From IMG/VR virus record IMGVR_UViG_3300031134_000653: a stretch of DNA of 64,000 bases; one strand, written 5' to 3'. The notes beneath the pieces were generated by a model. It ran no database searches. It was not told where the DNA came from and was given only the letters and a program-made list of their open reading frames with translations. Positions within the stretch are counted from its first letter, which is position 1. Each line of letters opens with the position of its first letter. Source of the stretch: an uncultured virus (IMG/VR IMGVR_UViG_3300031134_000653) (taxonomy: Duplodnaviria; Heunggongvirae; Uroviricota; Caudoviricetes). Shown here piece by piece: positions 3,630-31,762 of this stretch. The position numbers were made by a program, and so were the translations under genes.

Positions 3630-3648
3630 CTCACTTGTAAGAAACCAA

Positions 3649-3683
3649 CGGGGTTACTTGAACGCCCGACAAAACAACAAGAA
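3649..3683 (+). ncRNA. 5' UTR hairpin element, copy 1 (GTTACTTGAAC motif)
   Basis: CGGG-GTT-ACTTG-AAC-G-CCCG then AAAACAACAAGAA; repeated at 31308 and 31713. Confidence 0.7.
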
Positions 3684-3694
3684 ATGAAAATCTA

Positions 3695-4153
3695 ATGGCT
3701 ATTCGCAATGACCAGATTCGCCCCGCTCTCACCTCGGCAATGGATGCACTTCCTATCCATTCGTACGGTGAAAGGGGACTCGGTAACTATCGCATCTTCC
3801 TCGAAGGACTTGTTCCTTATCCCTTTGGTCTTGCCACTCGCAAGATGAAGAACGGTCGCATGAAGCTGACTCTTTCGGCTGATGCCTACTACGGACTCTA
3901 CGGTACGAACCTTTTCGAGGGGATTCCTACGGTTGAACTCACTGCAGGTCAGTTCATGGACCCTGAGACGCTGGGTGAAGCTATCCTGGCTCTTATCGAG
4001 CAGGAGAAGGCGATGTTCATCCCTCGGATTGCTCCTGTAAACGCTGCAGACCTTGTTTACACCGATTTGGTTCTCGACTACGTTTACCTCAACGGTTACA
4101 GCGGCACAGAGAAGAACCAGGAATACCTCCGCTCGTTTGGTATGACTGTCTAA
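3695..4153 (+). CDS. hypothetical protein (candidate early gene)
   Basis: 152 aa behind a consensus promoter and the hairpin UTR. Confidence 0.8.
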   Translation: MAIRNDQIRPALTSAMDALPIHSYGERGLGNYRIFLEGLVPYPFGLATRKMKNGRMKLTLSADAYYGLYGTNLFEGIPTVELTAGQFMDPETLGEAILALIEQEKAMFIPRIAPVNAADLVYTDLVLDYVYLNGYSGTEKNQEYLRSFGMTV

Positions 4154-4158
4154 CCACT

Positions 4159-4198
4159 AAAGCCTGAAGCCCCACTGTTATGTGGGGCTTCAGGCTTT
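4159..4198. terminator. hairpin terminator
   Basis: AAAGCCTGAAGCCCCAC / GTGGGGCTTCAGGCTTT. Confidence 0.8.
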
Positions 4199-4252
4199 TA
4201 ATGATGAAGTAGGTTGAGTCCAACAGGATGTTGTTCTGTTGGACCCAACCTA

Positions 4253-4984
4253 CTAGGAGAGCTTGTATGAACGAGGAACGGCAACATTCCAACCGCTGGC
4301 AACTTCAACATAACCAGCAGCATTCAAAAGCTTGGTCATCCCAGGGATATGTCCAGCTCCCCACACAAGAGTGACTGGCTTGGTCTCCTTCAAAGCTGCC
4401 TCGATGGCAATCTCGTTCCGGTAATCAAGAATCGCCGGGTCCGTATTCAGAGCAGCAGGACTGAAAGTTTTGAAGAACTTCTGAATGATTTGAACCCAAC
4501 CCATGTTCTTAATAACCCAGACCATGACCTTGCCTACTTCAGATTCAGACTCTTTCAACTCTTCAAACTTGTCAACTGCTTCCGACATGTTCTTCAAAGA
4601 CTCGTTGGTCATTCGCCTGGCAACAGAAAGAACATCCGCGTCGATGTTTTTAGCATTCAGACCTTCGATTTTCAAGCCGGCTTTCTGGAAAGTCAACTTG
4701 GTAACTTCAGCCATCTTCAGAGAAATTGAAGCCATGCTTTTCAGACTGTCAACCTTCTGGCTTTCCTCCTCTGACAAAGGACCAACAAATCCTTTGACTC
4801 CTTCGAGGTGGAGGATTCCTTCTTTCGAAGCTTGGTTCATGAAATCTTGCAAGTTTGCCCAGAAGCTGTCATGAGCAAGGTGCATGACACCAGCAATATT
4901 GATGACATGCTGAGTGGCAGGGTTCTGGAACCGTACTGTCTTCACTTCCAGACCTGCGAAGGTGGAACGAACAGATGAAGGCAT
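4253..4984 (-). CDS. TraB/GumN-like metal-dependent protein
   Basis: GVMHLA, LEGV, RNEIA and WGAGHIPG motifs. Confidence 0.6.
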   Translation of the reverse strand: MPSSVRSTFAGLEVKTVRFQNPATQHVINIAGVMHLAHDSFWANLQDFMNQASKEGILHLEGVKGFVGPLSEEESQKVDSLKSMASISLKMAEVTKLTFQKAGLKIEGLNAKNIDADVLSVARRMTNESLKNMSEAVDKFEELKESESEVGKVMVWVIKNMGWVQIIQKFFKTFSPAALNTDPAILDYRNEIAIEAALKETKPVTLVWGAGHIPGMTKLLNAAGYVEVASGWNVAVPRSYKLS

Positions 4985-5080
4985 TGATGACCTAACTTTT
5001 AGAGTAGTGATGTTGAGAACATTCTACCAACAAATAAGGGGTACGTCAAACCTGGTTCGACGTACCCCTTGCCTCATTTG

Positions 5081-5521
5081 TTAGTAAATTCTAATCGATA
5101 CACCACTCATGAGGTCTTGGCCAGTGTATTTTTCAGGACACTCTGCTTTGGATTCGAGGAAGAAATCACCAAATCTTCCTTGGTCTGAACTGTCACGTTC
5201 ACGGAAATAAAAGTCATCACTGGATCGGAACTTCACCTCAGTGCCTTCAAGTAGTTCAAGGTCTTCCAAAAGCCAATCATCATTACATCCATCCGCATAG
5301 GAGTAGGTATCGACAAGCCATTTCTTCAGATAAGCCAGAGCTGTTTGCTCATCCGATGTCCCTTCGACATACCAAAAACCGCCATCTTCACCAAACTCCT
5401 CGGCAGTAAGTTTAGGAGTTGGTTCGCCTTTAGCAACATGTTGTAAAGCTACAATGTAAGATTCGCCAGTTTCAGCTACCCGAGCACGAACAGTTTTCTT
5501 CAGGGAGTTGTTCTTCGTCAT
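5081..5521 (-). CDS. protein with N-terminal K..VRAR.A.TGE.Y helix, RNA-leader-associated (A)
   Basis: MTKNNSLKKTVRARVAETGESYIVA; homologous N-terminus in the 32448 gene. Confidence 0.75.
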   Translation of the reverse strand: MTKNNSLKKTVRARVAETGESYIVALQHVAKGEPTPKLTAEEFGEDGGFWYVEGTSDEQTALAYLKKWLVDTYSYADGCNDDWLLEDLELLEGTEVKFRSSDDFYFRERDSSDQGRFGDFFLESKAECPEKYTGQDLMSGVSIRIY

Positions 5522-5675
5522 AGTTTTCTCATTCAATCCTGCAAACACCCCACGCCTGCTCACATATGTCTATGAGTAAACGGAAAGAACAGGATTCACA
5601 GGGAACCTTCCTTCTCATTAACGTCAGCCACGTGGGAGCTTTGACGTTTCAAAGATGGGCTGCTGTTACAGCCAT
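5522..5675 (-). ncRNA. pseudoknotted leader RNA, copy A
   Basis: Shares GGC..ACAGC.GCCC.TCT, AAGGTT..AATCCTGT and GAGC blocks with 32311-32447; loop CCCACG is complementary to downstream CGTGGG; extended -10 TGG-TAATAT at 5682-5690. Confidence 0.7.
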
Positions 5676-5717
5676 GAGAAAATATTACCATGAGGTGGAA
5701 CAACGGGTGAGAAAACG

Positions 5718-6155
5718 TTACCTGTTTAGCTTGAGATGGAATGCGGATGCTGGGAGAAATTTTTTCAGGTCTTCTCTCGCGTAGAGGTTGTTGTTGTATC
5801 TCCATGTGTCTAAAGTTTCATGAACTGCGAGCTGCCAATTTCCTTGAACGTCTTGCCACATGTAGTGTTCATCTACTGCTATGTTTTTGCCGGTCTGAAT
5901 GATTTCAATTTTCCAATCATCATGTTCGTACAGTGTAACTCGGGACCCGTCTTCAAGCTTGAGGTCCAACACCGGACCAAAGTTGTTGGTGGTGTAGACC
6001 CTTGAAACAGTTCCTGTAAGTTCAGGGATTCGGTCGTCTTCTTCATCCCAGGGTAAATCAATATCAGGTAGGTAGAGGTCTTTGTTGTATTCAGGATCGA
6101 ACATGCGAACATTATCGTTTTCCCGAAGGGCAGAGAAATAGTGGTGAATAGTCAT
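5718..6155 (-). CDS. hypothetical protein
   Basis: GGAG SD before MTIH. Confidence 0.7.
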   Translation of the reverse strand: MTIHHYFSALRENDNVRMFDPEYNKDLYLPDIDLPWDEEDDRIPELTGTVSRVYTTNNFGPVLDLKLEDGSRVTLYEHDDWKIEIIQTGKNIAVDEHYMWQDVQGNWQLAVHETLDTWRYNNNLYAREDLKKFLPASAFHLKLNR

Positions 6156-6344
6156 AGTAAAAGCTCCAATTAGTAGATGATGAGGAAAGTAGGTATACAC
6201 ATCTCATCTTTGGAGGAGCTCTGGAACTGATCTACAAGAAAATATTCATGTATAGACCGTACCATAAAAATAGCTTCAAAGTCAAACAAAGCGAATTGAT
6301 CTGATGCTTGATGGCACCTGGCTTGCAACTGTTAGAAATCTGAC

Positions 6345-7109
6345 ATGATGAAAAGTTTTTTCAAGAGTAGAGCCATCCGATCAGAAATACGCAAATGTCG
6401 TTCAGTTGATCCTTCACAGTGTCGCTACCATAGTCTTTACACCGGTTTGGCTGCTGCAGTGGAAGAAAAAGATATGAGCCGCTACTTAGACCTGAAAACA
6501 GCAATCTCAGAAGCGAATCGTGAAGCAGAACTGAAAGGGTTTATTGACGAATCCAACATCAATTCAGAACCCGAATTGACAGTAGATAAAAATGAAGAAG
6601 CTGAAAAATCGCTTACAATTGGTGACTTCTTGACTGATGACAAGGGAATCATCCAGGTGTACAGCAAAGACACTATAAGTTTTGAAAAAGATTACAGTGC
6701 TATGTATACCTTTGGAGAGTTTACTGACCTGGAAACAGCTAAACAACTTCATCAAGATGACCCCTACAAGAAACTCCAAAATGGTGACTGTGCTGACTTA
6801 GCTCATGAGTTGTACAATAACAACCCCTATGTTGTGAACATCTCAGAAGTCAATATTGGAGAAAGAATGCCAGGTATGGAAGAAGATGAATCCATTCATG
6901 TTATTGCTCTACTCAAAGACGGTAACTATGTGGACAGCCTTGGAATCTGGAGCAAAGAAACGATGGAAGCCGCTTGGAAGCAAATCGACCCTACCTCCCG
7001 TGTTACAGATTTCCCTTCCTTTGAAAAGAAAAAACCTTCACCAAACAACCTCCATCCTATCAACAACACAATTCGTAGGATGACGGATGCTTATTTCGAG
7101 AACAAGTAA
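6345..7109 (+). CDS. Cys/His-tag protein with C-terminal papain/transglutaminase-like (C-H-D) domain
   Basis: RKCRSVDPSQCRYH tag; NGDCADLA..L, IHVIA, YVDSLG give a putative triad. Confidence 0.55.
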   Translation: MMKSFFKSRAIRSEIRKCRSVDPSQCRYHSLYTGLAAAVEEKDMSRYLDLKTAISEANREAELKGFIDESNINSEPELTVDKNEEAEKSLTIGDFLTDDKGIIQVYSKDTISFEKDYSAMYTFGEFTDLETAKQLHQDDPYKKLQNGDCADLAHELYNNNPYVVNISEVNIGERMPGMEEDESIHVIALLKDGNYVDSLGIWSKETMEAAWKQIDPTSRVTDFPSFEKKKPSPNNLHPINNTIRRMTDAYFENK

Positions 7110-7189
7110 TAAGTTCACCAGCGATGCACGTAACTAGAACAAATAGGTAATACCCAAGCTGTACATATAACTTGGGCATTATCTATTTG

Positions 7190-7375
7190 TCATTTATTGT
7201 ATAGTCTCTGTTCTCTTCGAGCTTTCATTCGAAGAAGAATCAGTCCTTGCGGAGGAGCAATGAACTTATGGCTTACACCAAGTTCACTTACCCACAGTCC
7301 GCTGGCTCCATGTGACCAGCTTTCACCACACACAGCACATGAGTTAGGGTCAGGGATAACGATGTCCTTCGACAT
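7190..7375 (-). CDS. small Cys/His protein
   Basis: PNSCAVCG...H...W.....H.F..P...L.L.RMKARR; GAAAG SD. Confidence 0.65.
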   Translation of the reverse strand: MSKDIVIPDPNSCAVCGESWSHGASGLWVSELGVSHKFIAPPQGLILLRMKARREQRLYNK

Positions 7376-7569
7376 GTTTTCATCTTTCCGCACCAGTCAA
7401 CAGTTTAGGATTAACCAATTCAATCCTACGTGACAAAAGATAATTTACCACAGAGTTGTAGCAGTAGTCAACAAATATCTAGGGTTTTCGTCAAAATGAC
7501 TAAAAATGAACCGATACTTAGAAATGAGTTACAATTAGACTATCAACAAACGATGAAAGGAACACTATC

Positions 7570-8574
7570 ATGGGATACGGAACCTACTCAACAAGAGCTT
7601 ACGCAGCCACAACAGGAGCAAAGATTGCTTCTGGTTCAACCTTCGGATACGACCGCACAGCTCGTTCAACCGGACGCTACGAAGCCCACGATTCACTTGA
7701 CCCTAAGAAACTGAACGCTGAAGGCAAGAACCTCCGCGAATCTCGTGATGGTGCAGACCACCCTAATGCTGTACCTATCGTAGTCGGATTCGACAGCACA
7801 GGCTCAATGGCTAACACTCCCCGAATCGTGCAGGAGAAACTTGCCAACCTGTTCGGTCTTCTCCTCCGTAAAGGCTACGTAGAAGACCCACAGATTTCCA
7901 TTGCCACATACGGTGATGCATACTGTGACCGTGTGCCACTCCAGATTTCACAGTTCGAGTCAGACAACAAGATTGACGACAACCTCGACAACCTTCTTCT
8001 CGAAGGTGGCGGTGGTGGAAACGGTGGCGAGACCGCAACCCTTCTCTGGTACTACCTCAACAACCATGTGGCTACTGACGCTTGGGACAAGCGTGGCAAG
8101 AAAGGCTACCTGTTCTTGATTGCTGACGAAGTTGCCCTGGATTTGCGTCCTGACCAGATTACCAAATTCGTTGGTGCCACAGAAGCCCCTGCAGCTTCTG
8201 AACTGACAGCTGAGAAGCTTGCTTCGAAGTTGCAGGAGAAGTGGGAAGTGTTTGTTCTCCTCCTCGACAACCTTAGTGCTCACAGCCAGGGTTCGAAGAA
8301 GTTCTACGAGAACCTCTTCGGAGCCAAGAACCTCATCATCCTTGAAAACGATGAAACAGTCAGTGAGACCATCGGTGCTGTTCTGGGTCGCATGGAGAAT
8401 GATGACTTGGATGATGACGAACTCATCGATGACCTTGTTTCTGAGGGTGCTACTAAAGCTATTGCAGAGAAGACTGCAACTGCTGTCGCTCGTCTTGGTA
8501 ACGCTCCTCGCGGGTCTGTTGCGAAGACTAACGTTCGCGTAGACACTTCCGACACAGGTGTTGAGTTCCTGTAA
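7570..8574 (+). CDS. vWA-domain protein
   Basis: MIDAS motif DSTGSM, GDA..D..PLQ..QFE, EGGGGGN.GE, KKGYLF.I.DE. Confidence 0.85.
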   Translation: MGYGTYSTRAYAATTGAKIASGSTFGYDRTARSTGRYEAHDSLDPKKLNAEGKNLRESRDGADHPNAVPIVVGFDSTGSMANTPRIVQEKLANLFGLLLRKGYVEDPQISIATYGDAYCDRVPLQISQFESDNKIDDNLDNLLLEGGGGGNGGETATLLWYYLNNHVATDAWDKRGKKGYLFLIADEVALDLRPDQITKFVGATEAPAASELTAEKLASKLQEKWEVFVLLLDNLSAHSQGSKKFYENLFGAKNLIILENDETVSETIGAVLGRMENDDLDDDELIDDLVSEGATKAIAEKTATAVARLGNAPRGSVAKTNVRVDTSDTGVEFL

Positions 8575-8584
8575 GAATTCATGA

Positions 8585-8625
8585 AAGAGGGGACTAATCA
8601 TTTCAATATGGTTAGTCCCCTCTTT
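8585..8625 (+). terminator. intrinsic terminator
   Basis: GAGGGGACTAATCA / TGGTTAGTCCCCTC followed by a T-run. Confidence 0.8.
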
Positions 8626-8704
8626 TTCGTTGATTGTTTGTCCGATACAGACTGAACTATTACCCAACCTTGCGCGATATAGCTATCTCAGTTATACTAC
8701 AATT

Positions 8705-9550: not shown

Positions 9551-9648
9551 GTTCTTCCAAATAAGATAAACAGGCGATGCTCCGCTTCTGCATGATAAAG
9601 TGGAGCATCGCCTGTTTTCAGTTTGATTGAATGAGAAAGTTTATATAG

Positions 9649-10434
9649 ATGATCCCTAAGTTCCATATAGAAAGAGCTAAGTCGCGTTATGCGATTCTCA
9701 TTTATTTGACCGAACAGCAAATGGCTCCTTCTAATATTGAGAATGGCAATCAGATTTTTTGCGAGCAAATATACCGAGCAACTCAAGAATTTTTCCCCGC
9801 TTCTGATTATGCTGCTGACCATATAGTATCGATGATACGTTCTTTACTTTTTCCATCTAAACGTTGGCTATGGAAATCAGCAGAACAAGGCAATAACGTC
9901 CGCTCTTACTCTTGGGGTAGTGACTCCCAGATTACTGTTACCATTAAGTTAGACAGAGAAACTCGCACTTTGCGATATCAGTATGTAAGCACTCCTTCAG
10001 CTGACTACAATTACGGTTCGGGCGGTCCAGTGGAAAATGAGAGTCTGAAAAACCTTACAAACGTTTTGACTGAACAAGATCAGCAAAAAACATTAGCACC
10101 TCAGATAGGTCAGAACATTTTAGTTACATTACATGGTTTGCAAAGACACATTGACAAGTTGAGGTCAAAGAAACTCTCTGTTGAGCAGCAGTTTGATTTA
10201 GAAAGACTGGCAAATGCTTGCAGAACTGTTGACAGGCTCTTGATCGAGCTGAGCCAGAATGATAGTTCTGAGGACGTTCAGCAAGAAACCATCTTAACGG
10301 CTGAGAAGTCCCTGGCTCAGATAGGCTCTTCAGTATCTTCTTTGGAGAAGGAACTATCTGAGGATGTCCTCCGTGAGATGAAGGTCCTGCAAATCTATTT
10401 GAACATGAGAAAAAACTCACTCGAAATCGAATGA
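9649..10434 (+). CDS. hypothetical protein, paralog of 8705
   Basis: Same C-terminal pattern as 8705; start uncertain. Confidence 0.7.
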   Translation: MIPKFHIERAKSRYAILIYLTEQQMAPSNIENGNQIFCEQIYRATQEFFPASDYAADHIVSMIRSLLFPSKRWLWKSAEQGNNVRSYSWGSDSQITVTIKLDRETRTLRYQYVSTPSADYNYGSGGPVENESLKNLTNVLTEQDQQKTLAPQIGQNILVTLHGLQRHIDKLRSKKLSVEQQFDLERLANACRTVDRLLIELSQNDSSEDVQQETILTAEKSLAQIGSSVSSLEKELSEDVLREMKVLQIYLNMRKNSLEIE

Positions 10435-10440
10435 GTTAAA

Positions 10441-10484
10441 AACTGAAGGGTCCCACCTCTAAGATAAGGTGGGACCCTTCAGTT
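10441..10484. terminator. bidirectional terminator
   Basis: AACTGAAGGGTCCCACCT / AGGTGGGACCCTTCAGTT. Confidence 0.8.
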
Positions 10485-10502
10485 CTCTATTGAGTAGATG
10501 GT

Positions 10503-10970: not shown

Positions 10971-11150
10971 ATCTGTTCCTTATAGTTTCGTCATGCCCAG
11001 TGTTTTGCTGTCTATAGTTCAGTGTATCTGAATATTCTGAAGTACTCAACAAAACTGAACCATGATATTTTCTCAAAATGGATACCAGTCGGAATGTAAC
11101 CGATAATAATTTCGTATCCATCCTTTACAACATTGAAAGACTTCCCCCCT

Positions 11151-12206
11151 ATGCTTAGGCTTCGCTCCGTATTGCAATCCTCTCGTGCTGCCATCGACCT
11201 GGCGAGCATCATGGTTGGTATTATTGTCATTGGTCTCATCGGCGGTGTTATCGCCGCCACTGTTTTCGCTGTCATTCCATGGTCTCAAGACAAAGCAGCC
11301 AAACAACAGCTCGATTCTGTTCACACTGCAGAGAACGCATTTTTCGGTCTATCTTCTGACCCAAGTCAAAACCTTGTAGGAGGCAAAAAGAACAGCTTTG
11401 CCAATTCAAGTGAACTTGATTCGAATAGCTTGCTGTCAAAAAATACTTCTGGTACTTACTGCGTTGTTCCGACAACTGACGGCAAAGATTACCATGCCTA
11501 TTCTAAGTCTGGTTCAGGCAAATGGTTCTACGCATTGAACAGTAACAAAGAAGCAAAAGTGTTAACTACAGGAGTTATTCCTTGTCTGTTATCAGGTGAT
11601 GCAGCTGGAACAGTAGACCCCACCGTAGATGATGGTTCAGGAACAGTTCCCACAACTCCTGGCACAGGGACAGACACAGGTACAAATCCTACTACACCAG
11701 CAGTTCCCGCTGATGTCCTCATTAAAAACTATGATTTTGAAAACAAATCAACTACCGGATTCTCTGCTTTGAATTCTCCTCGTAGTTATTCCTTCTCTGT
11801 TATTCCCACAACACGCCCAGGAAGCACAAGTGCAAACGCTTTGCAGTTTGTTTCAGAAGCAGACTCAGTGGCTACTCAACCAACCATTGTTGTAGCGATT
11901 CCAAACATTGAATACGGTCAGAAATACCGTGTCACTGCATGGGTCTACAGAGGTCACAAAGATGCTAATCGAACACCAGTTGACTTCAATGTATTTGGAG
12001 TTTCCTACAACGGTGTTGACGGAAGAGGAGACCCTGTTCCAGCGGTGAACACCTGGACAAAAGTAACCTATGAAGTTACTGCCAAATACAGAGGTCTCGC
12101 CAGCAAGAAAATTGTTGAAAACAACTTCACCATTATCAACTCAGCCCCAGCTTATGTCAATTCAAGCTTACTGGTTGATGATATTTCAATCGAGAAAATT
12201 GGATAG
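11151..12206 (+). CDS. type IV pilin-like protein with C-terminal carbohydrate-binding-like domain
   Basis: AIDLASIMVGIIVIGLIGGVIAATVFAVIPWSQD N-terminal helix, Cys pair, PT/G linker, NYDFE...Y.VTAWV...W.KVT...LLVDDISI CBM-like pattern. Confidence 0.65.
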   Translation: MLRLRSVLQSSRAAIDLASIMVGIIVIGLIGGVIAATVFAVIPWSQDKAAKQQLDSVHTAENAFFGLSSDPSQNLVGGKKNSFANSSELDSNSLLSKNTSGTYCVVPTTDGKDYHAYSKSGSGKWFYALNSNKEAKVLTTGVIPCLLSGDAAGTVDPTVDDGSGTVPTTPGTGTDTGTNPTTPAVPADVLIKNYDFENKSTTGFSALNSPRSYSFSVIPTTRPGSTSANALQFVSEADSVATQPTIVVAIPNIEYGQKYRVTAWVYRGHKDANRTPVDFNVFGVSYNGVDGRGDPVPAVNTWTKVTYEVTAKYRGLASKKIVENNFTIINSAPAYVNSSLLVDDISIEKIG

Positions 12207-13171: not shown

Positions 13172-13172
13172 G

Positions 13173-14254: not shown

Positions 14255-15544
14255 ATGAGGAAAGATGATATTGTCACAGGACTATTCTTAGGTGACGAAG
14301 GAAAAGGGACCGCTGTCGACTATCTTGCCCACCTAAACCGACCAGTTTCTGTTGTTCGAACAGGTGGCCCGCAAGCTGCACACAATGTTGTTAGCCCTGA
14401 CGGCACCCACCACACCTTTGCCCAGTTCGGCTCTGCTTCATTGCAGGAAGTTCCCACTATCCTGTCCAAGTACATGTTGGTCAATCCTTTCAACCTGGTC
14501 ACAGAAGGCGACCTTTTGTATGCGAAAACTGGAGGATGGAATCCTTTCAGTGACCTTCTCATTAGTGAGAATTCGCTCCTTATCACACCTCTCCACATTT
14601 TTCTGAATAAGAAAAGAGAAGACGCCCGAGGCAGCACCGCTCATGGTTCTACAGGTGAAGGCATCGGAGAAACACGACTGTTCCACATTCGCCATCCTGA
14701 GTATGCCCCAATCATGGGCGATTTGCAGCTCGGTAACCTGGACCGCCTGAAAACAAAGCTACAGGCTTTGTACGAATATGTTGAAGAGGAATGTTCCAAC
14801 ATCTGGGACGAAGGAACTGTCGATTCGCTTCATCAGGAGTACATAAACTTAGCGACAGATGAATTCCTCAACATCGTAGATGACGAGAAAATCTCTGAAC
14901 GCATCCGAGAGGGTTACACTATCTTCGAATGCTCACAAGGTGTTCTCCTGGACGAATCCTTAGGTTTCCACCCACATACCACCTGGACTGGTTCAACGTC
15001 TCAGAACGCCCAGCAGCTGCTCTCAGATGCAAATAAGTCTGCCGGTACAGTCATTGGAGTGACAAGAACGTACGCCACAAGACACGGAAATGGTCCTTTG
15101 CCTTCTGAGCTCCCTAACACGGATGAAAACATTACCAGAATGCCAGAAGACCATAATGCGTACGGTCATTACCAAGGAGGTTGGCGTCGAGGACACCTTG
15201 ACCTGCCCTTGCTTGAGTATGCAGTTCGAGCTAACAAAAAAGTAGACTTACTGTTCCTCACTCATTGCGATTTAGTCACAAAGGAATTCCAGGTAGTAAC
15301 CAGCTACCGAGACTGGAAAGATATTCCTTCAACGTTCTATGACCGCGATAGAGTCAAGCAGGAGGAAATTACCTCCCATCTTATGTCGTTGTCCTTAGAG
15401 GATGCCGAACTGACACAAGTTGAGTCTTTGGAAGAACTGGAAGAACTTCTTGAGCAGGAACTTGAAGTTCCAGTTGGCTACCGTTCATTCGGTAAAACTT
15501 ACGATGATAAGACTGTTGTTCAGGTAGGCTTCCAGCCTTCTTGA
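14255..15544 (+). CDS. adenylosuccinate synthetase-like protein (divergent PurA family)
   Basis: G..LGDEGKG..VD, GGPQAAHNV, HGSTG.GIG, FE.SQGVLLD..GFHP.TT, TR.Y.TRHGNGPLP.E, R.G.LD. Confidence 0.85.
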   Translation: MRKDDIVTGLFLGDEGKGTAVDYLAHLNRPVSVVRTGGPQAAHNVVSPDGTHHTFAQFGSASLQEVPTILSKYMLVNPFNLVTEGDLLYAKTGGWNPFSDLLISENSLLITPLHIFLNKKREDARGSTAHGSTGEGIGETRLFHIRHPEYAPIMGDLQLGNLDRLKTKLQALYEYVEEECSNIWDEGTVDSLHQEYINLATDEFLNIVDDEKISERIREGYTIFECSQGVLLDESLGFHPHTTWTGSTSQNAQQLLSDANKSAGTVIGVTRTYATRHGNGPLPSELPNTDENITRMPEDHNAYGHYQGGWRRGHLDLPLLEYAVRANKKVDLLFLTHCDLVTKEFQVVTSYRDWKDIPSTFYDRDRVKQEEITSHLMSLSLEDAELTQVESLEELEELLEQELEVPVGYRSFGKTYDDKTVVQVGFQPS

Positions 15545-15607
15545 GTTCCTGATTCAAGTAACGCCTCTCCGAAACGAGGGGCGTTACTTGCTGTTAGAAA
15601 TATGATT

Positions 15608-16516
15608 ATGACAAGAGTGAGATATCCAAGAGTTGCTGTAGGTAACGGCAGTTACTGTTACGCAGGACCTGATTGTAAGCTGCATGGCAAAGCTGCTAAT
15701 ACAAAAGTGGGATCATCTGATCTATCCACTGGGAACTTACCAGTTCAAACAGATGGGTGGTCACGTCAAGAATTTGCTTCGAAGTTGGAAGCCTGCAACA
15801 AAGCCTATGACGAAGCAGTTAAGGCTTCCAAGTTTGTGGAGAATCTTTCTGACCTGAAAGGTAACGCTCTTATGAAGGGCTACCTCGCCAGAGAATCAGA
15901 TGATGGTACCGGCTACCATGTATACAAAGCTGATGCCTCTTTGTTAGCAACTGGAACAAAAGTACTGTACCAAGAAATTGCATCCGCAGCCGCTGATGGT
16001 GTGCTGGCGCCTAAGAAAGCTAATGATCTCAGGAAAGAGCTGTCTGAGTATTCCAACCAAGTGTTAAGACCTCAAGCTGCTGAAGACAAGAAGCTGATGG
16101 AGAAACTCCAGAGTCGTTACGTCAAAGAAGGTGCTAACCAAGGAGCGATTCATAACCGCCAACAACAGCTTGCTTCTGCTCGCATACGTCAAGGATTGCC
16201 TGCTGTCTTAGATAAAGACACAGTTACTCCAGCTTTGTACCCAGTGACTGAGCTCAGCAACAAACAACTGTTGGAATACTACCAGTGCGGTAGGAAGAAA
16301 TCTTTCAATTCTGAACAAGAAGCCCAGTATTCCATTTCAGTTGTAGGTGACCCTTCTTTGCAGTCATACAAATGCTCTCATTGTGACAAAACACATACCG
16401 GTCATGGCGGCGGACAGAACTCTGAAGAAGAACAACTACTAAGTGCTGCACGGCATTGGGAGAAGTTCCCTGAAAAGTCTAACATGTTTGCTTTTGCTAA
16501 AGGTTTCATCAATTAG
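15608..16516 (+). CDS. Cys/His-tag protein with C-terminal C2H2-like zinc finger
   Basis: YCYAGPDCKLHG tag; CGRKKSF.SE..A ... YKCSHC...H.GHG; tandem paralog of 16536. Confidence 0.75.
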   Translation: MTRVRYPRVAVGNGSYCYAGPDCKLHGKAANTKVGSSDLSTGNLPVQTDGWSRQEFASKLEACNKAYDEAVKASKFVENLSDLKGNALMKGYLARESDDGTGYHVYKADASLLATGTKVLYQEIASAAADGVLAPKKANDLRKELSEYSNQVLRPQAAEDKKLMEKLQSRYVKEGANQGAIHNRQQQLASARIRQGLPAVLDKDTVTPALYPVTELSNKQLLEYYQCGRKKSFNSEQEAQYSISVVGDPSLQSYKCSHCDKTHTGHGGGQNSEEEQLLSAARHWEKFPEKSNMFAFAKGFIN

Positions 16517-23208: not shown

Positions 23209-23209
23209 A

Positions 23210-24794: not shown

Positions 24795-24870
24795 GGTGTA
24801 TGTCTCCAAAAATAGTGAGGGTAGAACCGAATAAGTTCTACCCTCACTATACTACAGCGTTACTGAAATA

Positions 24871-26004: not shown

Positions 26005-26118
26005 GGGTGTCCTTTTTCTATTGAGTCTTTGAACTTATCTGTACATTACCCCATTATGGGTGACAGTCTCAACGTAGGTTTACCTATTTTTTATATGAAT
26101 GTATGGTATGATACAATC

Positions 26119-26682: not shown

Positions 26683-26749
26683 CAAAATGGTTTCTGACCA
26701 GCAATTATGGTAGAATTGTAGTACGGAAACAAACTCTCAAAGGATAATT

Positions 26750-27082
26750 ATGGCTGAAGATATTGTATTAGATGAACTGACCAAACTCTTAACTGATGAC
26801 TATTACGAGCTTTCCATGGAAGGCGATAAGATTGAGGCAGAAAAAAGTTCTGGTTTCTTTGAGACTGTTGCAGTAATCGAAGGTGATGACCGCCGCTGGG
26901 TACGAACAAATACAGTCATTACGTTACTTCCTGATGGTCGTTATGTTTCCTGGACGTACGACCATGGTCTGACTGAATCTCAGGACAATACTGGTCCTGC
27001 TGAGTACGGTAAGCCTCAGTATACTTTTGTCACTCCACGTGAAGTAGTCGTAACGACTACAGTCTGGGATAAAGTTTCTTGA
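26750..27082 (+). CDS. hypothetical protein
   Basis: AAGGA SD; RW, GLTE.Q motifs. Confidence 0.75.
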   Translation: MAEDIVLDELTKLLTDDYYELSMEGDKIEAEKSSGFFETVAVIEGDDRRWVRTNTVITLLPDGRYVSWTYDHGLTESQDNTGPAEYGKPQYTFVTPREVVVTTTVWDKVS

Positions 27083-27084
27083 AA

Positions 27085-27128
27085 ATAGAAGAAGCCCCGC
27101 ACCTGACACGGTGCGGGGCTTCTTCTAT
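27085..27128. terminator. bidirectional terminator
   Basis: ATAGAAGAAGCCCCGCACC / GGTGCGGGGCTTCTTCTAT. Confidence 0.8.
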
Positions 27129-27134
27129 GCGGAA

Positions 27135-27587
27135 TTACCTATGGTTGATGATTAGTTCATCACCGTTCATGAGTAGAACATGGTCTGGGAGGTTTACCAG
27201 CTGACCTTCATACAGGCTGATAGCAACTGCAACACTCACTTCGATGCCTTCAAGTTTCAGAGCTGGAATGGTGTACTGCGTGGCGAAGGCTTGCTTGCGA
27301 AACAGTGTGTCCTTCTCGATGCTGGCAGTGTAAAGCTCTGTCACCCACTTGCGAACACCCACGTTTGCTGCACCAGAAAGCAGAAGCAGCCAGACGATGA
27401 AAGCCGCAACGCTGTTCATCACAACCAGACCAAGAACGATACTGGCAACTGCAACCACAGCCCCGACCAGGCTGGCACGCTGAACGAGGTTGATGCTGGC
27501 GATACGAGAAGCTCGACCAGTAAAGTCGAACGGCGAGCTTTCGACATTGATTATAGTCGTCTCTTTGTTCTGCGAAATGATGTTCAT
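27135..27587 (-). CDS. membrane protein
   Basis: Two TM segments; GAGGAG SD. Confidence 0.7.
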   Translation of the reverse strand: MNIISQNKETTIINVESSPFDFTGRASRIASINLVQRASLVGAVVAVASIVLGLVVMNSVAAFIVWLLLLSGAANVGVRKWVTELYTASIEKDTLFRKQAFATQYTIPALKLEGIEVSVAVAISLYEGQLVNLPDHVLLMNGDELIINHR

Positions 27588-27715
27588 TTTTCTCCTCTAA
27601 ACCATCTATCAACCATAAGTGTTACGAACAGAATGATCGTAACAGAAGCTTCTCCAGAATGCAACTGGCACAGCTTCTGGTTGACAAAAAGGAGGGTTCG
27701 GAGTAGAGTTCAGAC

Positions 27716-27997
27716 ATGAACGATTTCATCTACATCATCCAGCGGTATTTTGACCCGCTTATGTCGAACAGTAACATCATTCTCGTCGGACTGGTTTTCG
27801 AAGAGGAGGAAGCTATCAGCATCGCTGAGGGCATTGACAACTACTACAGCCCGAGCGTCCACCGTGTTCCTCTGAACGTCTTCGATGGACCTGATGGTAC
27901 GAACCTGTCGAATCGTGAGAGCGAAATCTACGGCTACCGCAAGGCTGCTGACGGCGGCTGGCGTTGTGGTCGAATTCTCAACGGAGTAGCTGTCTGA
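27716..27997 (+). CDS. hypothetical protein
   Basis: TTGACA...TAGAGT-6-ATG leaderless promoter. Confidence 0.75.
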   Translation: MNDFIYIIQRYFDPLMSNSNIILVGLVFEEEEAISIAEGIDNYYSPSVHRVPLNVFDGPDGTNLSNRESEIYGYRKAADGGWRCGRILNGVAV

Positions 27998-28464
27998 TGC
28001 GTAAAGTTGACGTTCAGACCCCTGAGATAACTGAACTACTTGCTGTTGCTCCTCTGATGGACAAGGTAGGTGAGGTTATCGCACGACAGGTTGAGGTACT
28101 CACCCCTGTCTCCACAGTTATCAATGGTGAGTTCGTTGAGACAGAAAACTTTGCCCAGCCAGGTGACTTCATCGTCACTAATCCTGGCGGAGAAGAGTAT
28201 GTACTCACAGAAACTAATTTTTGGACACGCTACAACGCCAGTGACCGACACGGAATCTATGTCTCTAAGGGTTCGATTCGGGTGATTTCGAATCCTTATA
28301 ACGATGACATTGAGATTGACGCTCCTTGGGGTGCCCCGCAGTTCGGTGAGAAGAACTGTTACATTGCTGTGTCCATCACTTCAGACATCAATGATATCAG
28401 CACTGACCGTTACATCATCGCTGCTGATGCTCTGGCTGAAACTTACGCTTTTCGTTCCAACTAA
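27997..28464 (+). CDS. PGDYG-like domain protein
   Basis: A.PGDFIV.NP.GEEY....F...Y and APWG; TGATG coupling. Confidence 0.7.
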   Translation: MRKVDVQTPEITELLAVAPLMDKVGEVIARQVEVLTPVSTVINGEFVETENFAQPGDFIVTNPGGEEYVLTETNFWTRYNASDRHGIYVSKGSIRVISNPYNDDIEIDAPWGAPQFGEKNCYIAVSITSDINDISTDRYIIAADALAETYAFRSN

Positions 28465-28570
28465 GTAACCGAGAAGGACCTTCCTAAGTAGGTGAAGGCC
28501 CTTCTCTCTTTTAAGGCTCATTTCTGGCAAGATCAGGTATTATTGTAGTACAAGAAAAGGAACGACATAC

Positions 28571-29101
28571 ATGACTATCGTAGCTATCACAGGACACCGC
28601 CCAGAGAAAATTTTGAACCAAGACTGGGTTCATAAAACGTTAGCTGGCGTACTTCAGGAACTTGAACCTGAGAAGCTTATCCAAGGAATGGCTGCCGGCG
28701 TTGACTTGCTCTCCGCTGTAGTTGCCCATGAATGCGGTATTCCTTTCCTTTCAGCTCGTCCCTGGGCAGGTCACTCTCCTCGCGTGCAGGACAGCAACTT
28801 ATACGCCTGGGCAATTGATAACTCTGTTGAAGTTGTGAACGTTGACCCAGCCCAGCATTACGCTGGACCTTGGGTTTACCAGAAACGTAACGAATACATG
28901 GTGGACCATGCAACCATTGTTGTTGCTGTGTGGGATGGAACGTCAGGTGGTACAAAGAACTGTGTCATGTATGCCAAACGCAGGAAAGTTCCTTTGGTCG
29001 TCATCAACCCTGAAACTATGACTGTTACTTACCCTGCTGGGTATGGACCTAACGCCAAGCCTGTGGAGCCTGTTGAGGACGAAGCGAACTTCTTGTTCTA
29101 A
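28571..29101 (+). CDS. SLOG (YspA/DUF1273-like) family protein
   Basis: AITGHRP, GMA.GVD, RN.YMVD, AVWDG.SGGT.NCV.YA. Confidence 0.88.
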   Translation: MTIVAITGHRPEKILNQDWVHKTLAGVLQELEPEKLIQGMAAGVDLLSAVVAHECGIPFLSARPWAGHSPRVQDSNLYAWAIDNSVEVVNVDPAQHYAGPWVYQKRNEYMVDHATIVVAVWDGTSGGTKNCVMYAKRRKVPLVVINPETMTVTYPAGYGPNAKPVEPVEDEANFLF

Positions 29102-29164
29102 ACAGGTATAAAGTGTGATAGAATGAGGCATGTAAGCAAGCCAGCTTTTATGTTAGGAAAAATC

Positions 29165-29692
29165 ATGACATTCGACCACACTCTTTACCTGGACTTCGAT
29201 GGAGTTCTGAACGCTGTCGAACCTCAGCATGACAAGGTTGAGAATTTCGTCATCAAGATTGAAAACAGCCTCAACTTCCTGCCTGAGACTTTCATTGTGT
29301 ACTCCCCCAACGTGGTTGAGACACTTGAGCGTCTTCGTGAGCAGTACAAGATGGAGCTGGTGTGGCTGACTACCTGGAATGAGAACAACACTGTCCTTCG
29401 TCTTGCCGAGCATCTCAAAGGTCTGGACCATGGTCGTGTCCTCCCGGCTAATCTTCACACTGCCAAAGTTGGCAAGCGTGAATGGACTCAGTGGAAAGCT
29501 GAAGCCATTCTTGAAGACCAAAAAGCTTCTGAGCGTCCTTTCATCTGGGTTGATGACAATGCTCACAAGTACTGGGGTGAGGCTGTCAATGAAGGCACAG
29601 AAGCTTCCAGCCTCTTCGTGACACCGAACTCCACCTGGGGTCTTACCAAGAATAACCTTGACAAAATGGAGCAGTTCCTTAGCCAGAACTGA
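29165..29692 (+). CDS. HAD domain protein (Swiss Army knife RNA-repair type)
   Basis: LYLDFDGVLN, VWLTTW, WK, RPFIWVDD, GLT. Confidence 0.85.
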   Translation: MTFDHTLYLDFDGVLNAVEPQHDKVENFVIKIENSLNFLPETFIVYSPNVVETLERLREQYKMELVWLTTWNENNTVLRLAEHLKGLDHGRVLPANLHTAKVGKREWTQWKAEAILEDQKASERPFIWVDDNAHKYWGEAVNEGTEASSLFVTPNSTWGLTKNNLDKMEQFLSQN

Positions 29693-29700
29693 AAAACCTT

Positions 29701-30309
29701 ATGATGCATTTTACTTCAGACCACCATGCGGGTCATACAAACATCCTTCATCTGGGTGATGGTCGAGACTTCAAAAGCATCAGCCATATGCATGCAGAGA
29801 TTATCAACAGGCACAACAGTGTAGTTGGTTTCGATGATGACGTGTACTTCCTTGGTGACATTGCTATGGGCACTCTGGAAGACTCACTGAAAATCTTCTC
29901 AGGAATGATGGGTAACAAGTTCCTCATCCCTGGCAACCATGAGAAGATTTTCAGTGGGACTAACTCCAAGACTCGAATTCAGACATACACCCCTGTCTAT
30001 GAAGATGCAGGGTTTACTGTACTGCCCGAAAACACTTCAGTTGTTATTGACGGTCAAGAAGTTCTTCTTAGCCATTTCCCTTACTCCGAGAAACTGTTCA
30101 ACAAGACACAGACGGACAAGTTTGCTAAGAACCGTCCTGTAGATACAGGTCTTCCGCTTATTCATGGTCACACTCATCAGCGTCACCAGCATCAGGATGA
30201 CAGAAAACGAATGTTCCATGTGGGAATGGATTCAACCAACTTCACTCCTGTGTCTGAAGTTGAAATCATTGACTGGCTAAACCGTCTTAGGTCGAATAAG
30301 ATTCTCTGA
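29701..30309 (+). CDS. calcineurin-like metallophosphoesterase
   Basis: FTSDHH.GH.NI, LGD, GNHE, LSHFP, HGHTH, HVG.D. Confidence 0.9.
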   Translation: MMHFTSDHHAGHTNILHLGDGRDFKSISHMHAEIINRHNSVVGFDDDVYFLGDIAMGTLEDSLKIFSGMMGNKFLIPGNHEKIFSGTNSKTRIQTYTPVYEDAGFTVLPENTSVVIDGQEVLLSHFPYSEKLFNKTQTDKFAKNRPVDTGLPLIHGHTHQRHQHQDDRKRMFHVGMDSTNFTPVSEVEIIDWLNRLRSNKIL

Positions 30310-30708
30310 CCTTCTGGCTGGCACAAGGATATTCTGAGTCAGCTCTTCAGGCACTTTATCCGTGCTGAACTCTTTGATACTGCCATCCCTGTTCTTCCCT
30401 AAAGTTCGAACGTAGGCTTTTTTGGTTTGATTCCAGATGATGTAATCACCTACACTGACGACAGTGTAAGTGTAGTAATCAATCGAATCTCCGTAAGCGG
30501 AAACACCTTTCTGCCAGGTGATCGAATTTCCGTCTTTGCTAAGCTCCATCGAGTGAGGTGCAGGACCACCGACGAAATGAAGAAGCCGACTGTTTGATTT
30601 TTGGTTATTCAGTAGCTCAACCAAATCTTCTTTGGTTTCAATGTAAGCAACACGAATTCGGGGCAGTTCGACAGTGTAAGAAGCAATCTCTTTCATGATT
30701 TCTTTCAT
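30277..30708 (-). CDS. hypothetical protein
   Basis: ORF of about 140 aa. Confidence 0.6.
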   Translation of the reverse strand: MKEIMKEIASYTVELPRIRVAYIETKEDLVELLNNQKSNSRLLHFVGGPAPHSMELSKDGNSITWQKGVSAYGDSIDYYTYTVVSVGDYIIWNQTKKAYVRTLGKNRDGSIKEFSTDKVPEELTQNILVPARRSENLIRPKTV

Positions 30709-30807
30709 GTAGGGTTGGTTAACAAGCATACCAAGAGGCGAACCATCATTGAACTTTTTGCTGTTTCTTGGTATGATTGAACCACCTCACATGACGAAAG
30801 ATTGCTT

Positions 30808-31239
30808 ATGCTTGCCCGAAGTGCCAAATTTACGAAATCTAAATTCTTCTACGCTTTAGACTTCGAGAACCCTTACTCTCTTGAACTCAACGAAGGAACA
30901 TCATCTAACGGTGTCTCCTACAGATACATCAGCGTAACTTACCCTGCAATCTGGTTCAAAACTAAAGCAGGCTTGCTGACTGTGACAGAAGGTTCCCTGT
31001 CTCATAACACAAAGCAGGACACTGAGTTTAATCCGCAAGCAGTCAAAGAAGATGCTTTACGACACTTTGACGGTCGTTACGGTGGAAGCGTTGACTTCCA
31101 ATGGAATGGTGACAGCATGTGGTGTAGGCAGAAGACTCTTGCTGAGATGAATGAAGCCCAAGAACGACTTGACCAGCACCTGAAAAGGTTCCCTCTTGCT
31201 CCTGAAGGATATGAGGGTTGGTACAGCATCAAGGATTAG
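30808..31239 (+). CDS. hypothetical protein
   Basis: ORF with GAAAG SD. Confidence 0.7.
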   Translation: MLARSAKFTKSKFFYALDFENPYSLELNEGTSSNGVSYRYISVTYPAIWFKTKAGLLTVTEGSLSHNTKQDTEFNPQAVKEDALRHFDGRYGGSVDFQWNGDSMWCRQKTLAEMNEAQERLDQHLKRFPLAPEGYEGWYSIKD

Positions 31240-31253
31240 TTTTCAGAAACGGT

Positions 31254-31282
31254 TTGCTTTTTCTGATGGCAGGGTGTATGCT
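31254..31282 (+). promoter_or_regulatory. sigma70-type promoter
   Basis: TTGCTT-17-TATGCT, followed by CTTGTAAGAAAC as in the 3601 promoter. Confidence 0.7.
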
Positions 31283-31307
31283 CATGCTTGTAAGAAACAA
31301 AAGCCAA

Positions 31308-31344
31308 CGGGGTTACTTGAACGCCCGCTCTAAAACAACAAGAA
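31308..31344 (+). ncRNA. 5' UTR hairpin element, copy 2
   Basis: CGGGGTTACTTGAACGCCCG then AAAACAACAAGAA. Confidence 0.7.
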
Positions 31345-31356
31345 AGAATAGAAATC

Positions 31357-31692
31357 ATGTTTGATGTAGTGCTTGATGCAACTACCGAAGTTACCAAGCT
31401 CGAAGCTCAGCTCGCTGAGGCTCGTGCCAACCTGGCAAAGAAGGAAGCCCTCACCCCTGCTCAGCGTCTTGCTGAAGCAATTCATGAGGCTAAGGGTGGC
31501 ACTGACGGTCACCCTGATTGCTACTGGCGGGGTGAGTTCGCTTACAATGAAACCCCTGAAGGGTTCCATGCCTGGGAGCATGAGCGTTTCCTTGGCAAGG
31601 CAGAGAAGGTTCTCGCTCTTGTCAACAACGACCTGGCTGCTGCGTTGAAGATTGTGGGCATCATCACCCGCGATGACACCTACTTCGACTAA
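31357..31692 (+). CDS. hypothetical protein (candidate early gene)
   Basis: Follows the promoter and hairpin UTR. Confidence 0.8.
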   Translation: MFDVVLDATTEVTKLEAQLAEARANLAKKEALTPAQRLAEAIHEAKGGTDGHPDCYWRGEFAYNETPEGFHAWEHERFLGKAEKVLALVNNDLAAALKIVGIITRDDTYFD

Positions 31693-31712
31693 ACTCCACC
31701 CACACTAATTCT

Positions 31713-31750
31713 GCAGGGTTACTTGAACGCCTGCTATAAAACAACAAGAA
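31713..31750 (+). ncRNA. 5' UTR hairpin element, copy 3 (covarying)
   Basis: GCAGG-GTT-ACTTG-AAC-G-CCTGC then AAAACAACAAGAA. Confidence 0.7.
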
Positions 31751-31762
31751 AGAACTAAAACC

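What the first reader, a model, noticed from the sequence alone, without database searches (positions are those of the whole stretch)
3635..31762. Three copies of a covarying bulged hairpin plus AAAACAACAAGAA in SD-poor 5' UTRs
Seen: 3649 and 31308 read CGGG-GTT-[ACTTG]-AAC-G-CCCG, and 31713 reads GCAGG-GTT-[ACTTG]-AAC-G-CCTGC. The outer stem changes compensatorily while the loop and bulged G stay invariant. Each is followed by AAAACAACAAGAA and an A-rich run to the ATG of an unrelated protein (3695, 31357, 31763). Copies 1 and 2 sit behind 17-bp-spaced sigma70 promoters and share CTTGTAAGAAAC near +1; copy 3 is intercistronic. Inference: a cis-acting RNA (protein-binding operator, processing or stabilising site, or translation enhancer) that defines an early regulon.
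Basis: partly seen in the sequence, partly recalled or inferred. Interest (0 to 1): 0.72.

Follow-up and report, generated by a model that had tools for sequence, protein, structure and literature searches.

The report
Miniature NAD-type riboswitches on giant element
The three repeated gene leaders are most likely tiny pseudoknot riboswitches built like the known NAD+-II class; they would switch a set of genes on a giant actinobacterial mobile element on only when the cell's NAD pool falls.

Summary
The three copies are real, but the hairpin and the A-rich box form one structure: an H-type pseudoknot. Loop CUUG pairs with tail CAAG. A second type pairs CUCC with GGAG, the SD (20 of 20 contexts pair; 0/500 shuffles). 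The core maps onto the NAD+-II (pnuC) riboswitch: G6-U7, A31-C32-G33, A-run, C46-A47. Helix P1a is absent, as in engineered constructs that still bind NMN (PMC9841397). The motif was found only on 725-883 kb low-GC elements and shorter metagenome contigs, probably Micrococcales megaplasmids. It leads 13 gene families, including pncA, a pncA operon and a Nampt-like gene; six of these promoters also carry NrtR-type boxes. Best reading: translational OFF switches for NMN/NAD+ (0.72). Against this: no binding or RNA data, a flipped pocket-floor pair, pseudoknot covariation from one contig, and no known NAD link for 10 of 13 families, including the window's three. 'SD-poor' is wrong: AGAAAG is an actinobacterial SD. 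A published 'mini-NAD+-II' class is recalled but was not retrievable. Verdict: new variant of a known kind.

The parts
3601..3629 (+). sigma70-type promoter of copy 1 (TTGACA-17-TATAGT)
   Evidence: sequence; predicted only
3649..3681 (+). Copy 1 aptamer: P1 3649-3652/3665-3668; G6-U7 equivalents 3653-3654; pseudoknot 5' strand 3657-3660; A31-C32-G33 equivalents 3662-3664; A-run 3671-3674; C46 equivalent 3675; pseudoknot 3' strand 3678-3681
   Evidence: mapping onto PMC10085692 numbering
3680..3684 (+). SD of copy 1 (AGAAA); its first 2 nt lie in the pseudoknot
3695..4153 (+). 152-aa protein of no known family, led by copy 1
   Evidence: no Pfam or PHROG match; one 95% identical relative
31254..31282 (+). 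sigma70-type promoter of copy 2 (TTGCTT-17-TATGCT)
   Evidence: sequence; predicted only
31308..31342 (+). Copy 2 aptamer: P1 31308-31311/31324-31327; pseudoknot 31316-31319/31339-31342; G33 equivalent 31323; C46 equivalent 31336
31341..31346 (+). SD of copy 2 (AGAAAG); its first 2 nt lie in the pseudoknot
31357..31692 (+). 111-aa protein (weak phrog_12218, unknown function); its homolog in another element (L136) is also motif-led
31713..31748 (+). Copy 3 aptamer (intercistronic): P1 31713-31717/31730-31734; pseudoknot 31722-31725/31745-31748; G33 equivalent 31729; C46 equivalent 31742
31747..31752 (+). SD of copy 3 (AGAAAG); its first 2 nt lie in the pseudoknot
31763..32239 (+). 158-aa protein of no known family, led by copy 3
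   Evidence: no Pfam or PHROG match; Atlas hits under 0.9, hypothetical

Best explanation
Each copy is a 33-36 nt riboswitch aptamer with the NAD+-II fold but no helix P1a. Shown by sequence comparison: P1 forms; the loop pairs with the tail as a 4-bp pseudoknot whose 3' strand takes in the first 2-4 nt of the SD in most copies; and the nucleotides of the NMN pocket are present. Inferred: NMN, NR or NAD+ binds the G33:C46-equivalent pair, stabilises the pseudoknot and blocks ribosome loading, so the genes are translated only when the nicotinamide-nucleotide pool is low. Inferred: the element uses this to run NAD salvage (pncA, Nampt-like) and about ten small unknown proteins as one low-NAD regulon. 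At some promoters an NrtR-type DNA box would add ADP-ribose-dependent transcriptional release.
For: Pseudoknot: the complement of the loop 4-mer lies once, 9-13 nt into the tail, in 20 of 20 distinct contexts (17 CUUG/CAAG, 3 CUCC/GGAG). P1 plus pseudoknot: 99.3% of cells paired, 4 pairs with double changes, 0/500 shuffles for covariation score, and slid controls lower. The type-2 copies were found by the hairpin alone, so their tail was not selected. Core identity: G6, U7, A31, C32, G33, the A-run, C46 and A47 of NAD+-II (passages of PMC10085692) all have same-letter counterparts in 17 of 17 aligned rows. The type-2 pseudoknot CUCC/GGAG equals the Streptococcus one without its extra G. P1a is dispensable: constructs linking G15 directly to the ACG strand bind NMN by ITC (PMC9841397 section 19), and a two-strand P1a-less form assembles only with NMN. 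Gene context: pncA directly (L125:11539), a pncA operon (L115, L117, L122) and a Nampt-like gene (L118). An independent NAD signal: GTCA-N3-TGAC boxes with A/T flanks, 10 sites against 1.08 in shuffles, with the same core before nrtR-nadA in 3 of 4 Microbacteriaceae genomes. Tandem aptamers occur at L125 and L136.
Against: No ligand-binding, reporter or transcript data (one search was uninformative). The pair under the ligand is G-C here but C5-G34 in NAD+-II, where C5 contacts the NMN phosphate and C5U prevented complex formation. G9 and G15 read A, U8 reads A in type 2, and only two A's, not four, lie between C46 and the pseudoknot. Pseudoknot covariation rests on one contig (JAAIGE0101188732.1; 2 of 17 rows), and related rows inflate shuffle tests. 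Invariance of the type-1 core was partly fixed by the search pattern. 10 of 13 motif-led gene families, including all three in the window, have no known NAD link. In L118 and L127 the best SD lies just downstream of the pseudoknot, not in it. No Rfam family matched, even weakly in a meaningful way.
Confidence: 0.72

Rival explanations
1. Same pseudoknot riboswitch, different ligand: a variant whose flipped floor pair and altered tetrad tier retune it to another NAD-related or nucleotide signal (nicotinamide, ADP-ribose or an immune nucleotide).
For: The floor pair is G-C in 17 of 17 rows, against C5-G34 in NAD+-II. Most target genes are not NAD enzymes.
Against: G33 and C46, which make the nicotinamide hydrogen bonds, and the G6:C32:A47:U7 tetrad are all kept. 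SD sequestration of pncA and a Nampt-like gene fits repression by the pathway's product, not by its substrate.
Confidence: 0.12
2. Protein-binding translational operator, like the Aca1/Aca2 5' UTR hairpins, read by a regulator of the element.
For: Geometry resembles Aca1 motifs: about 20 nt, close behind the TSS, about 20 nt before the start codon, also intercistronic (PMC13551039 results). A DNA palindrome accompanies six leaders.
Against: It does not explain the loop-tail covariation or the match to the NMN pocket. The DNA palindrome matches host NrtR sites and is absent from the window's three copies. No aca-like HTH gene was recognised among the motif-led genes, though whole elements could not be searched.
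Confidence: 0.08
3. Ligand-independent 5' stabiliser or translation enhancer: a hairpin at the transcript start plus an unstructured A/C-rich ribosome standby site.
For: In 9 of 17 contexts with a promoter call the core starts 10-12 nt after the -10 box, so P1 is at the 5' end. The tail is A-rich.
Against: It needs neither invariant loop letters nor loop-tail pairing; copy 3 and the second tandem aptamers are internal.
Confidence: 0.05
4. Double-stranded DNA operator downstream of the promoter (the core reads GT-N7-AC, as NrtR sites do).
For: GT-N7-AC is the NrtR core (passage of PMC2330246).
Against: The symmetric register shows no covariation (61.7% paired, 375/500 shuffles). It lacks GTCA/TGAC and A/T flanks. 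Orientation is fixed to the sense strand.
Confidence: 0.02

Closest known systems
NAD+-II riboswitch (pnuC motif, Streptococcus; PMC7749635, structures PMC10085692 and PMC9841397)
   Same: P1, A-run behind it, long-range pseudoknot over the RBS; G6, U7, A31, C32, G33, C46 and A47 kept; type-2 pseudoknot CUCC/GGAG; NAD-salvage genes downstream in some copies.
   Different: No P1a; floor pair G-C instead of C5-G34; G9 and G15 read A; shorter tail; type-1 pseudoknot CUUG/CAAG; found on a giant actinobacterial element in up to 5-6 copies, mostly before unknown genes; tandem aptamers.
Engineered delta-P1a NAD+-II aptamers (PMC9841397, section 19)
   Same: Pseudoknot strand joined to the ACG strand directly or by a few nucleotides; these bind NMN (best Kd 18.3 uM) and NAD+ more weakly.
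   Different: Artificial; they keep C5-G34, G15 and the Streptococcus tail.
'Mini-NAD+-II' riboswitches (Breaker laboratory; recalled from memory, not seen in any call)
   Same: As recalled: natural P1a-less NAD+-II variants forming an H-type pseudoknot before nicotinamide-salvage genes.
   Different: Could not be compared: the paper was not retrieved (searches; look-up). Whether its consensus admits the G-C floor and CUUG/CAAG, or lists plasmid copies, is unknown.
preQ1-I riboswitch (review PMC11625349)
   Same: Small H-type pseudoknot with an A-rich tail; burial of only two SD nucleotides in the Tte example.
   Different: A cytosine specificity base is required just before the 3' strand of P1; here that position is G. 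No queuosine genes downstream.
Aca1/Aca2 5' UTR RNA motifs (PMC13551039)
   Same: Size and position in the leader; several operons per element.
   Different: Protein-bound hairpins tied to aca operons; no pseudoknot in the results section read.
T4-type PeSL cassettes (PMC4122927)
   Same: Repeated promoter/stem-loop/SD module before unrelated small genes.
   Different: Their stem-loop lies upstream of the promoter; here it lies in the transcript.

Membership tests
NAD+-II riboswitch | P1 helix | tested here: met
   4 pairs; two show double changes (C-G/U-A/A-U and G-C/A-U)
NAD+-II riboswitch | Pseudoknot between the internal loop and the RBS-containing tail | tested here: met
   20 of 20 contexts; two compensatory pairs, from one contig; SD overlap 2-4 nt in most copies, none in L118 and L127
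NAD+-II riboswitch | G33:C46 pair that binds nicotinamide | tested here: met
   Both letters invariant in 17 of 17 rows at the positions given; partly fixed by the search pattern for type 1
NAD+-II riboswitch | G6:C32:A47:U7 tetrad | tested here: met
   All four letters invariant; the 3D arrangement itself was not tested
NAD+-II riboswitch | U8:A50:A31:G15 tetrad | tested here: inconclusive
   A31 and a tail A kept; G15 position is A; U8 is U in type 1 and A in type 2
NAD+-II riboswitch | C5-G34 pair under the ligand (C5 N4 to the NMN phosphate) | tested here: not met
   G-C in 17 of 17 rows; C5U blocked complex formation in PMC10085692
NAD+-II riboswitch | Helix P1a | tested here: not met
   Absent in all copies; dispensable for NMN binding in vitro
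NAD+-II riboswitch | Association with NAD salvage or transport genes | tested here: inconclusive
   3 of 13 motif-led units (pncA, 207-aa/pncA operon, Nampt-like); none of the window's three
NAD+-II riboswitch | Binds NMN, NR or NAD+ and not NADH | not testable with these tools
   needs in-line probing or ITC
mini-NAD+-II (recalled) | Match to the published consensus or covariance model | not testable with these tools
   paper not retrieved
preQ1-I riboswitch | Cytosine specificity base before the 3' strand of P1, and U directly after the floor G | tested here: not met
   G in both places once P1 is fixed by covariation; no Rfam hit
Aca1/Aca2 RNA motifs | HTH aca gene in the regulated operon with its DNA motif at the promoter | tested here: inconclusive
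   None recognised among motif-led genes; whole elements not searchable
PeSL cassettes | Stem-loop upstream of the promoter | tested here: not met
   The structure lies downstream of the -10 box in 17 of 17 promoter calls (definition)
NrtR operator (for the hairpin itself) | 21-bp symmetric palindrome with GT-N7-AC | tested here: not met
   GT-N7-AC is present, but the symmetric register is unsupported and the host core GTCA-N3-TGAC is missing

The most novel reading that the evidence does not exclude
A giant mobile element carries its own multi-copy NAD-pool riboswitch, partly stacked with ADP-ribose-sensing NrtR boxes, as a detector for NAD+ cleavage. Cleavage by NADase defence systems or ADP-ribosyltransferases lowers NMN/NAD+ and raises ADP-ribose together. 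The riboswitch would then mark about ten unknown small proteins, including the window's three, as candidate counters to NAD-depleting defence or stress, and could be used as bait to find more.
Probability: 0.3. Interest if true: 0.85.

Novelty: new variant of a known kind. Interest (0 to 1): 0.66.

Why it matters
NAD+ riboswitches are rare (PMC7749635: NAD+-I limited to Acidobacteria, NAD+-II described from Streptococcus). Natural P1a-less copies with a flipped pocket floor and two alternative pseudoknot sequences test which contacts the NMN pocket really needs, in a 33-36 nt RNA that is easy to synthesise. The regulon gives a first functional handle on unknown genes of 700-900 kb uncultured elements: if the switch senses NAD, these proteins are made when NAD falls. 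That is the condition created by defence systems that break NAD+ to ADP-ribose and nicotinamide, which phages counter with Nampt-containing NARP2 (bioRxiv 10.1101/2024.02.11.579819, abstract and passages).

Tried and rejected
IMG/VR DNA scans gave only chance matches: 0 of 69, 0 of 45 (17, 22), 0 of 4 (114, 119), 0 of 7 (131, 135). IMG/VR protein scans found no relatives. The GTDB-wide type-1 pattern found nothing. Model R2 found nothing in 151 Microbacteriaceae genomes, in 61 loci including the Leifsonia 701-kb contig, or above noise in three named plasmids; a type-2 pattern found nothing in 401 genomes of the phylum. These are 'not found in those searched'. An exact pattern hit in G003:C5 was chance inside a GC-rich stretch without P1 or tail; it was dropped from A4 and A5 but is in A3. 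Model R1 was built from A3 with a structure string off by one column and was not used. Weak R2 hits in L117/121/122/123 lie in coding sequence. Laying four RNA runs gave 31 short contigs scattered over 19.5 kb (27 listed), none of the listed ones across a hairpin; this says nothing about expression. The 207-aa protein folded at pLDDT 80 but matched nothing at Z 5 or more and had no usable Atlas hit. Rfam gave no hit at gathering scores and only unrelated E>1 hits. A literature search for the motif letters returned 77 papers; the 20 listed held only the A-rich word and were unrelated. Rejected readings: symmetric DNA operator, PeSL, preQ1-I, SD-less leaders. Considered from memory only and dropped without test: ANTAR sites, CRISPR-repeat-like RNAs, rrn boxA complement.
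Full report
Observation. The 16-letter core occurs three times without mismatch, against 0.33 expected with up to three mismatches, and each is followed by the exact A-rich box. An unfiltered covariance-model scan finds no fourth copy in the window. Rfam has no match. No whole genome is held for the window.

Where else it occurs. A two-part pattern found 22 metagenome loci, on contigs of 725, 789, 879 and 883 kb and on shorter ones, with 39-54% G+C. One 789-kb contig is nearly the same element as the window (motif-led proteins 95-99% identical) and holds five copies. That pattern fixed the type-1 core and most of the box, so invariance among these hits is partly built in. A search of the same loci with up to three mismatches in the hairpin alone gave a second type, three copies on contig JAAIGE0101188732.1, two of them in tandem behind a type-1 copy. 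The motif was not found in IMG/VR, in GTDB by exact pattern, in 151 Microbacteriaceae genomes by model, or in three named plasmids.

What the element is. The window encodes a repeated pilin-like protein whose relatives lie on Micrococcales plasmids such as pACHL01 and on large Microbacteriaceae contigs. The 701-kb Leifsonia sp. Leaf264 contig matches 8 of 89 window ORFs and 22 of 205 locus ORFs, among them gyrAB, the NAD-dependent ligase and the Nampt-like gene. Of its 149 proteins scanned against Pfam (out of 697 called), some match plasmid RepA, type IV pilus ATPases, FtsK/SpoIIIE and ArdC; none matched a terminase or capsid family. Four protein scans of IMG/VR found no relative. I infer a Micrococcales megaplasmid. 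This rests on a distant relative, and a giant phage is not excluded.

Structure. On 15 distinct hairpin rows the bulged register has 12 cells with double changes (0/500 shuffles), whereas the symmetric register expected of a DNA palindrome shows no covariation. The reason is that the loop pairs with the tail. In 20 of 20 distinct contexts the complement of the loop 4-mer occurs exactly once, 9-13 nt into the tail and always after AAACAA: CUUG with CAAG in 17, CUCC with GGAG in 3. With P1 and this helix, 99.3% of cells pair and four pairs show double changes (0/500 shuffles for the covariation score; slid controls lower). The two pseudoknot changes come from one contig, so they count as one evolutionary event, but the tail of those copies was not selected by the search.

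Ribosome-binding site. The rDNA of Leifsonia and Frigoribacterium reads CCTCCTTTCT at the 16S end (the mature RNA end was not determined), so AGAAAG is an SD in these hosts. 24 of 24 leader contexts have a 5-7 nt match at 4-9 nt aligned spacing, against 27 of 87 window ORFs and 263 of 3000 random positions (for the two tandem leaders the match belongs to the second aptamer). The pseudoknot takes in the first 2 nt of the SD in the window's copies, 3 nt in L115, L117 and L135, and the GGAG in type 2; in L118 and L127 the SD lies just beyond it. Burial of two SD nucleotides is described for the Tte preQ1-I switch (passage of PMC11625349). Promoter-like sites were called for 17 of 24 contexts, without a chance control, and 9 of these put P1 at the very start of the transcript.

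Match to NAD+-II. Passages of PMC10085692 give the NAD+-II numbering: P1, then G6 U7 U8 G9, the pseudoknot strand C10-C14, G15, helix P1a, A31 C32 G33, the second P1 strand, an A5 run, C46 A47-A50 and the pseudoknot strand G51-G54. Nicotinamide is bound by the G33:C46 pair under the G6:C32:A47:U7 tetrad. The motif here reads P1, G U U/A A, pseudoknot strand, A, A C G, P1, linker, A-run, C A A, pseudoknot strand. P1a is missing, but constructs that join G15 to the ACG strand directly or through 1-3 C's bind NMN (best Kd 18.3 uM) and bind NAD+ more weakly (PMC9841397 section 19). Differences: the floor pair is G-C, not C5-G34 (C5 contacts the NMN phosphate, and C5U blocked assembly); G9 and G15 read A; U8 is A in type 2; and the tail is two A's shorter. 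So it is built like NAD+-II but fails two features of the described class, and I do not file it as a plain member. preQ1-I is excluded by a G at the cytosine specificity position.

Gene context. Collapsing orthologs, the motif leads 13 gene families. Three units are NAD salvage: pncA directly (L125), an operon of a 207-aa protein, a small ORF and pncA (L115, L117, L122), and a Nampt-like gene, cut off by the contig end (L118). Two loci encode LRV-repeat-like proteins (Pfam LRV for L135; L130 by BLASTP to it). The rest, including the window's three proteins, have no assigned function. Separately, a DNA palindrome GTCA-N3-TGAC with A/T flanks occurs 10 times in 242 kb against 1.08 in shuffles (two of the ten are orthologous; one lacks an obvious promoter), six times just upstream of motif-bearing promoters. 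The same core precedes the gene upstream of nadA in 3 of 4 Microbacteriaceae genomes. I take that gene as nrtR from its position and from Table 1 of PMC2330246; I did not scan it. That paper gives GT-N7-AC as the NrtR core and ADP-ribose as the releasing ligand. The window's three copies have no such box.

Mechanism. Shown: P1, the pseudoknot, its overlap with the SD in most copies, the pocket letters, and NAD genes behind some copies. Inferred: an oxidised nicotinamide nucleotide stabilises the pseudoknot and blocks initiation, so translation is on when the pool is low (0.72). Rivals are a changed ligand (0.12), a protein-bound operator of the Aca type, whose geometry is similar (results section of PMC13551039; 0.08), a passive stabiliser or enhancer (0.05) and a DNA site (0.02). 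RNA-run contigs were too sparse to bear on the leader. The bolder reading is that low NMN/NAD+ plus high ADP-ribose, the signature of NAD+ cleavage by defence systems (abstract and passages of bioRxiv 10.1101/2024.02.11.579819), releases salvage enzymes and unknown counter-measures together (0.3).

Novelty. I recall a Breaker-laboratory report of natural 'mini-NAD+-II' riboswitches. Searches and look-up 143 did not retrieve it, so this is memory only. The compact class is therefore probably known. What appears new is this variant (G-C floor, CUUG/CAAG pseudoknot, tandem pairs) and its use as a multi-copy regulon on giant actinobacterial elements. The motif letters were not found among the listed papers. 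Papers seen: PMC7749635 part 1 of 4; PMC10085692, PMC11625349, PMC2330246, PMC4122927 and the NARP preprint as abstract or passages; PMC9841397 passages and section 19; PMC13551039 abstract and results. No figures or supplements were seen; the published consensus alignments there bear on the membership rows.

Noticed in passing
window 7485-7505; L134:4762-4782; L115:9931, L117:9936, L118:431, L125:11433, L130:276, L135:528: NrtR-type palindrome (GTCA-N3-TGAC with T/A flanks). In the window it precedes the 334-aa phrog_2971 gene (7570-8574), which has no riboswitch. A conserved CCGATA/ACGATA follows most boxes at about the -35 position.
   Followed up: partly
window 51971-52747 (-); L124:17300-18214, L125:9134-9949 and 14622-15668, L136:866-1888: Several ADP-ribosyltransferase-domain genes (PF03496) on these elements, possible NAD consumers. 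At least two begin with a short C-x-A-K-x-P-x-x-C-x-x-H motif that also starts unrelated proteins (window 41191-41742; a variant in 6345-7109).
   Followed up: no
window 11133-12206 and 44428-45579; L124, L132: Paralogous proteins with a constant pilin-like N-terminus (DLASIMVG...) and variable C-termini (CBM_4_9, DUF285, RCC1 in a plasmid relative); 14 matches on the Leifsonia 701-kb contig. A good marker for this class of element.
   Followed up: partly
L115:10043-10666, L117:10042-10668: 207-aa protein family (9 representatives, invariant D-x-x-EGRGW-x-x-P) heading the pncA operon; confident model (pLDDT 80) without a clear fold match.
   Followed up: partly
window 29123-30309, 38211-38927, 34552-35043, 47855-48337: RNA-repair and nucleotide-salvage-like genes: HAD_SAK_2, metallophosphoesterase, RNA ligase, two nucleoside 2-deoxyribosyltransferase-like ORFs; also adenylosuccinate synthetase (14255-15544) and a pyrimidine-dimer glycosylase (277-828).
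   Followed up: no
window 3515-3586: 29-nt imperfect inverted repeat ending 15 nt upstream of the -35 box of copy 1; not seen before the other window copies.
   Followed up: no
window 1477-1526, 10426-10499, 44372-44423, 48769-48818: Long near-perfect inverted repeats between convergent genes, probably bidirectional terminators.
   Followed up: no
G001:C5 (L203-L238): The Leifsonia 701-kb contig carries flagellar genes, Cas3, a PARP-domain protein, Ro60/TROVE, RtcB, DnaE and a ribonucleotide reductase besides RepA.
   Followed up: no
L127:14768-14808: Long hairpin (-28.6 kcal/mol for the 62-nt stretch) followed by CAGAAACAAGAA, resembling the type-2 tail; not a copy of the aptamer.
   Followed up: no
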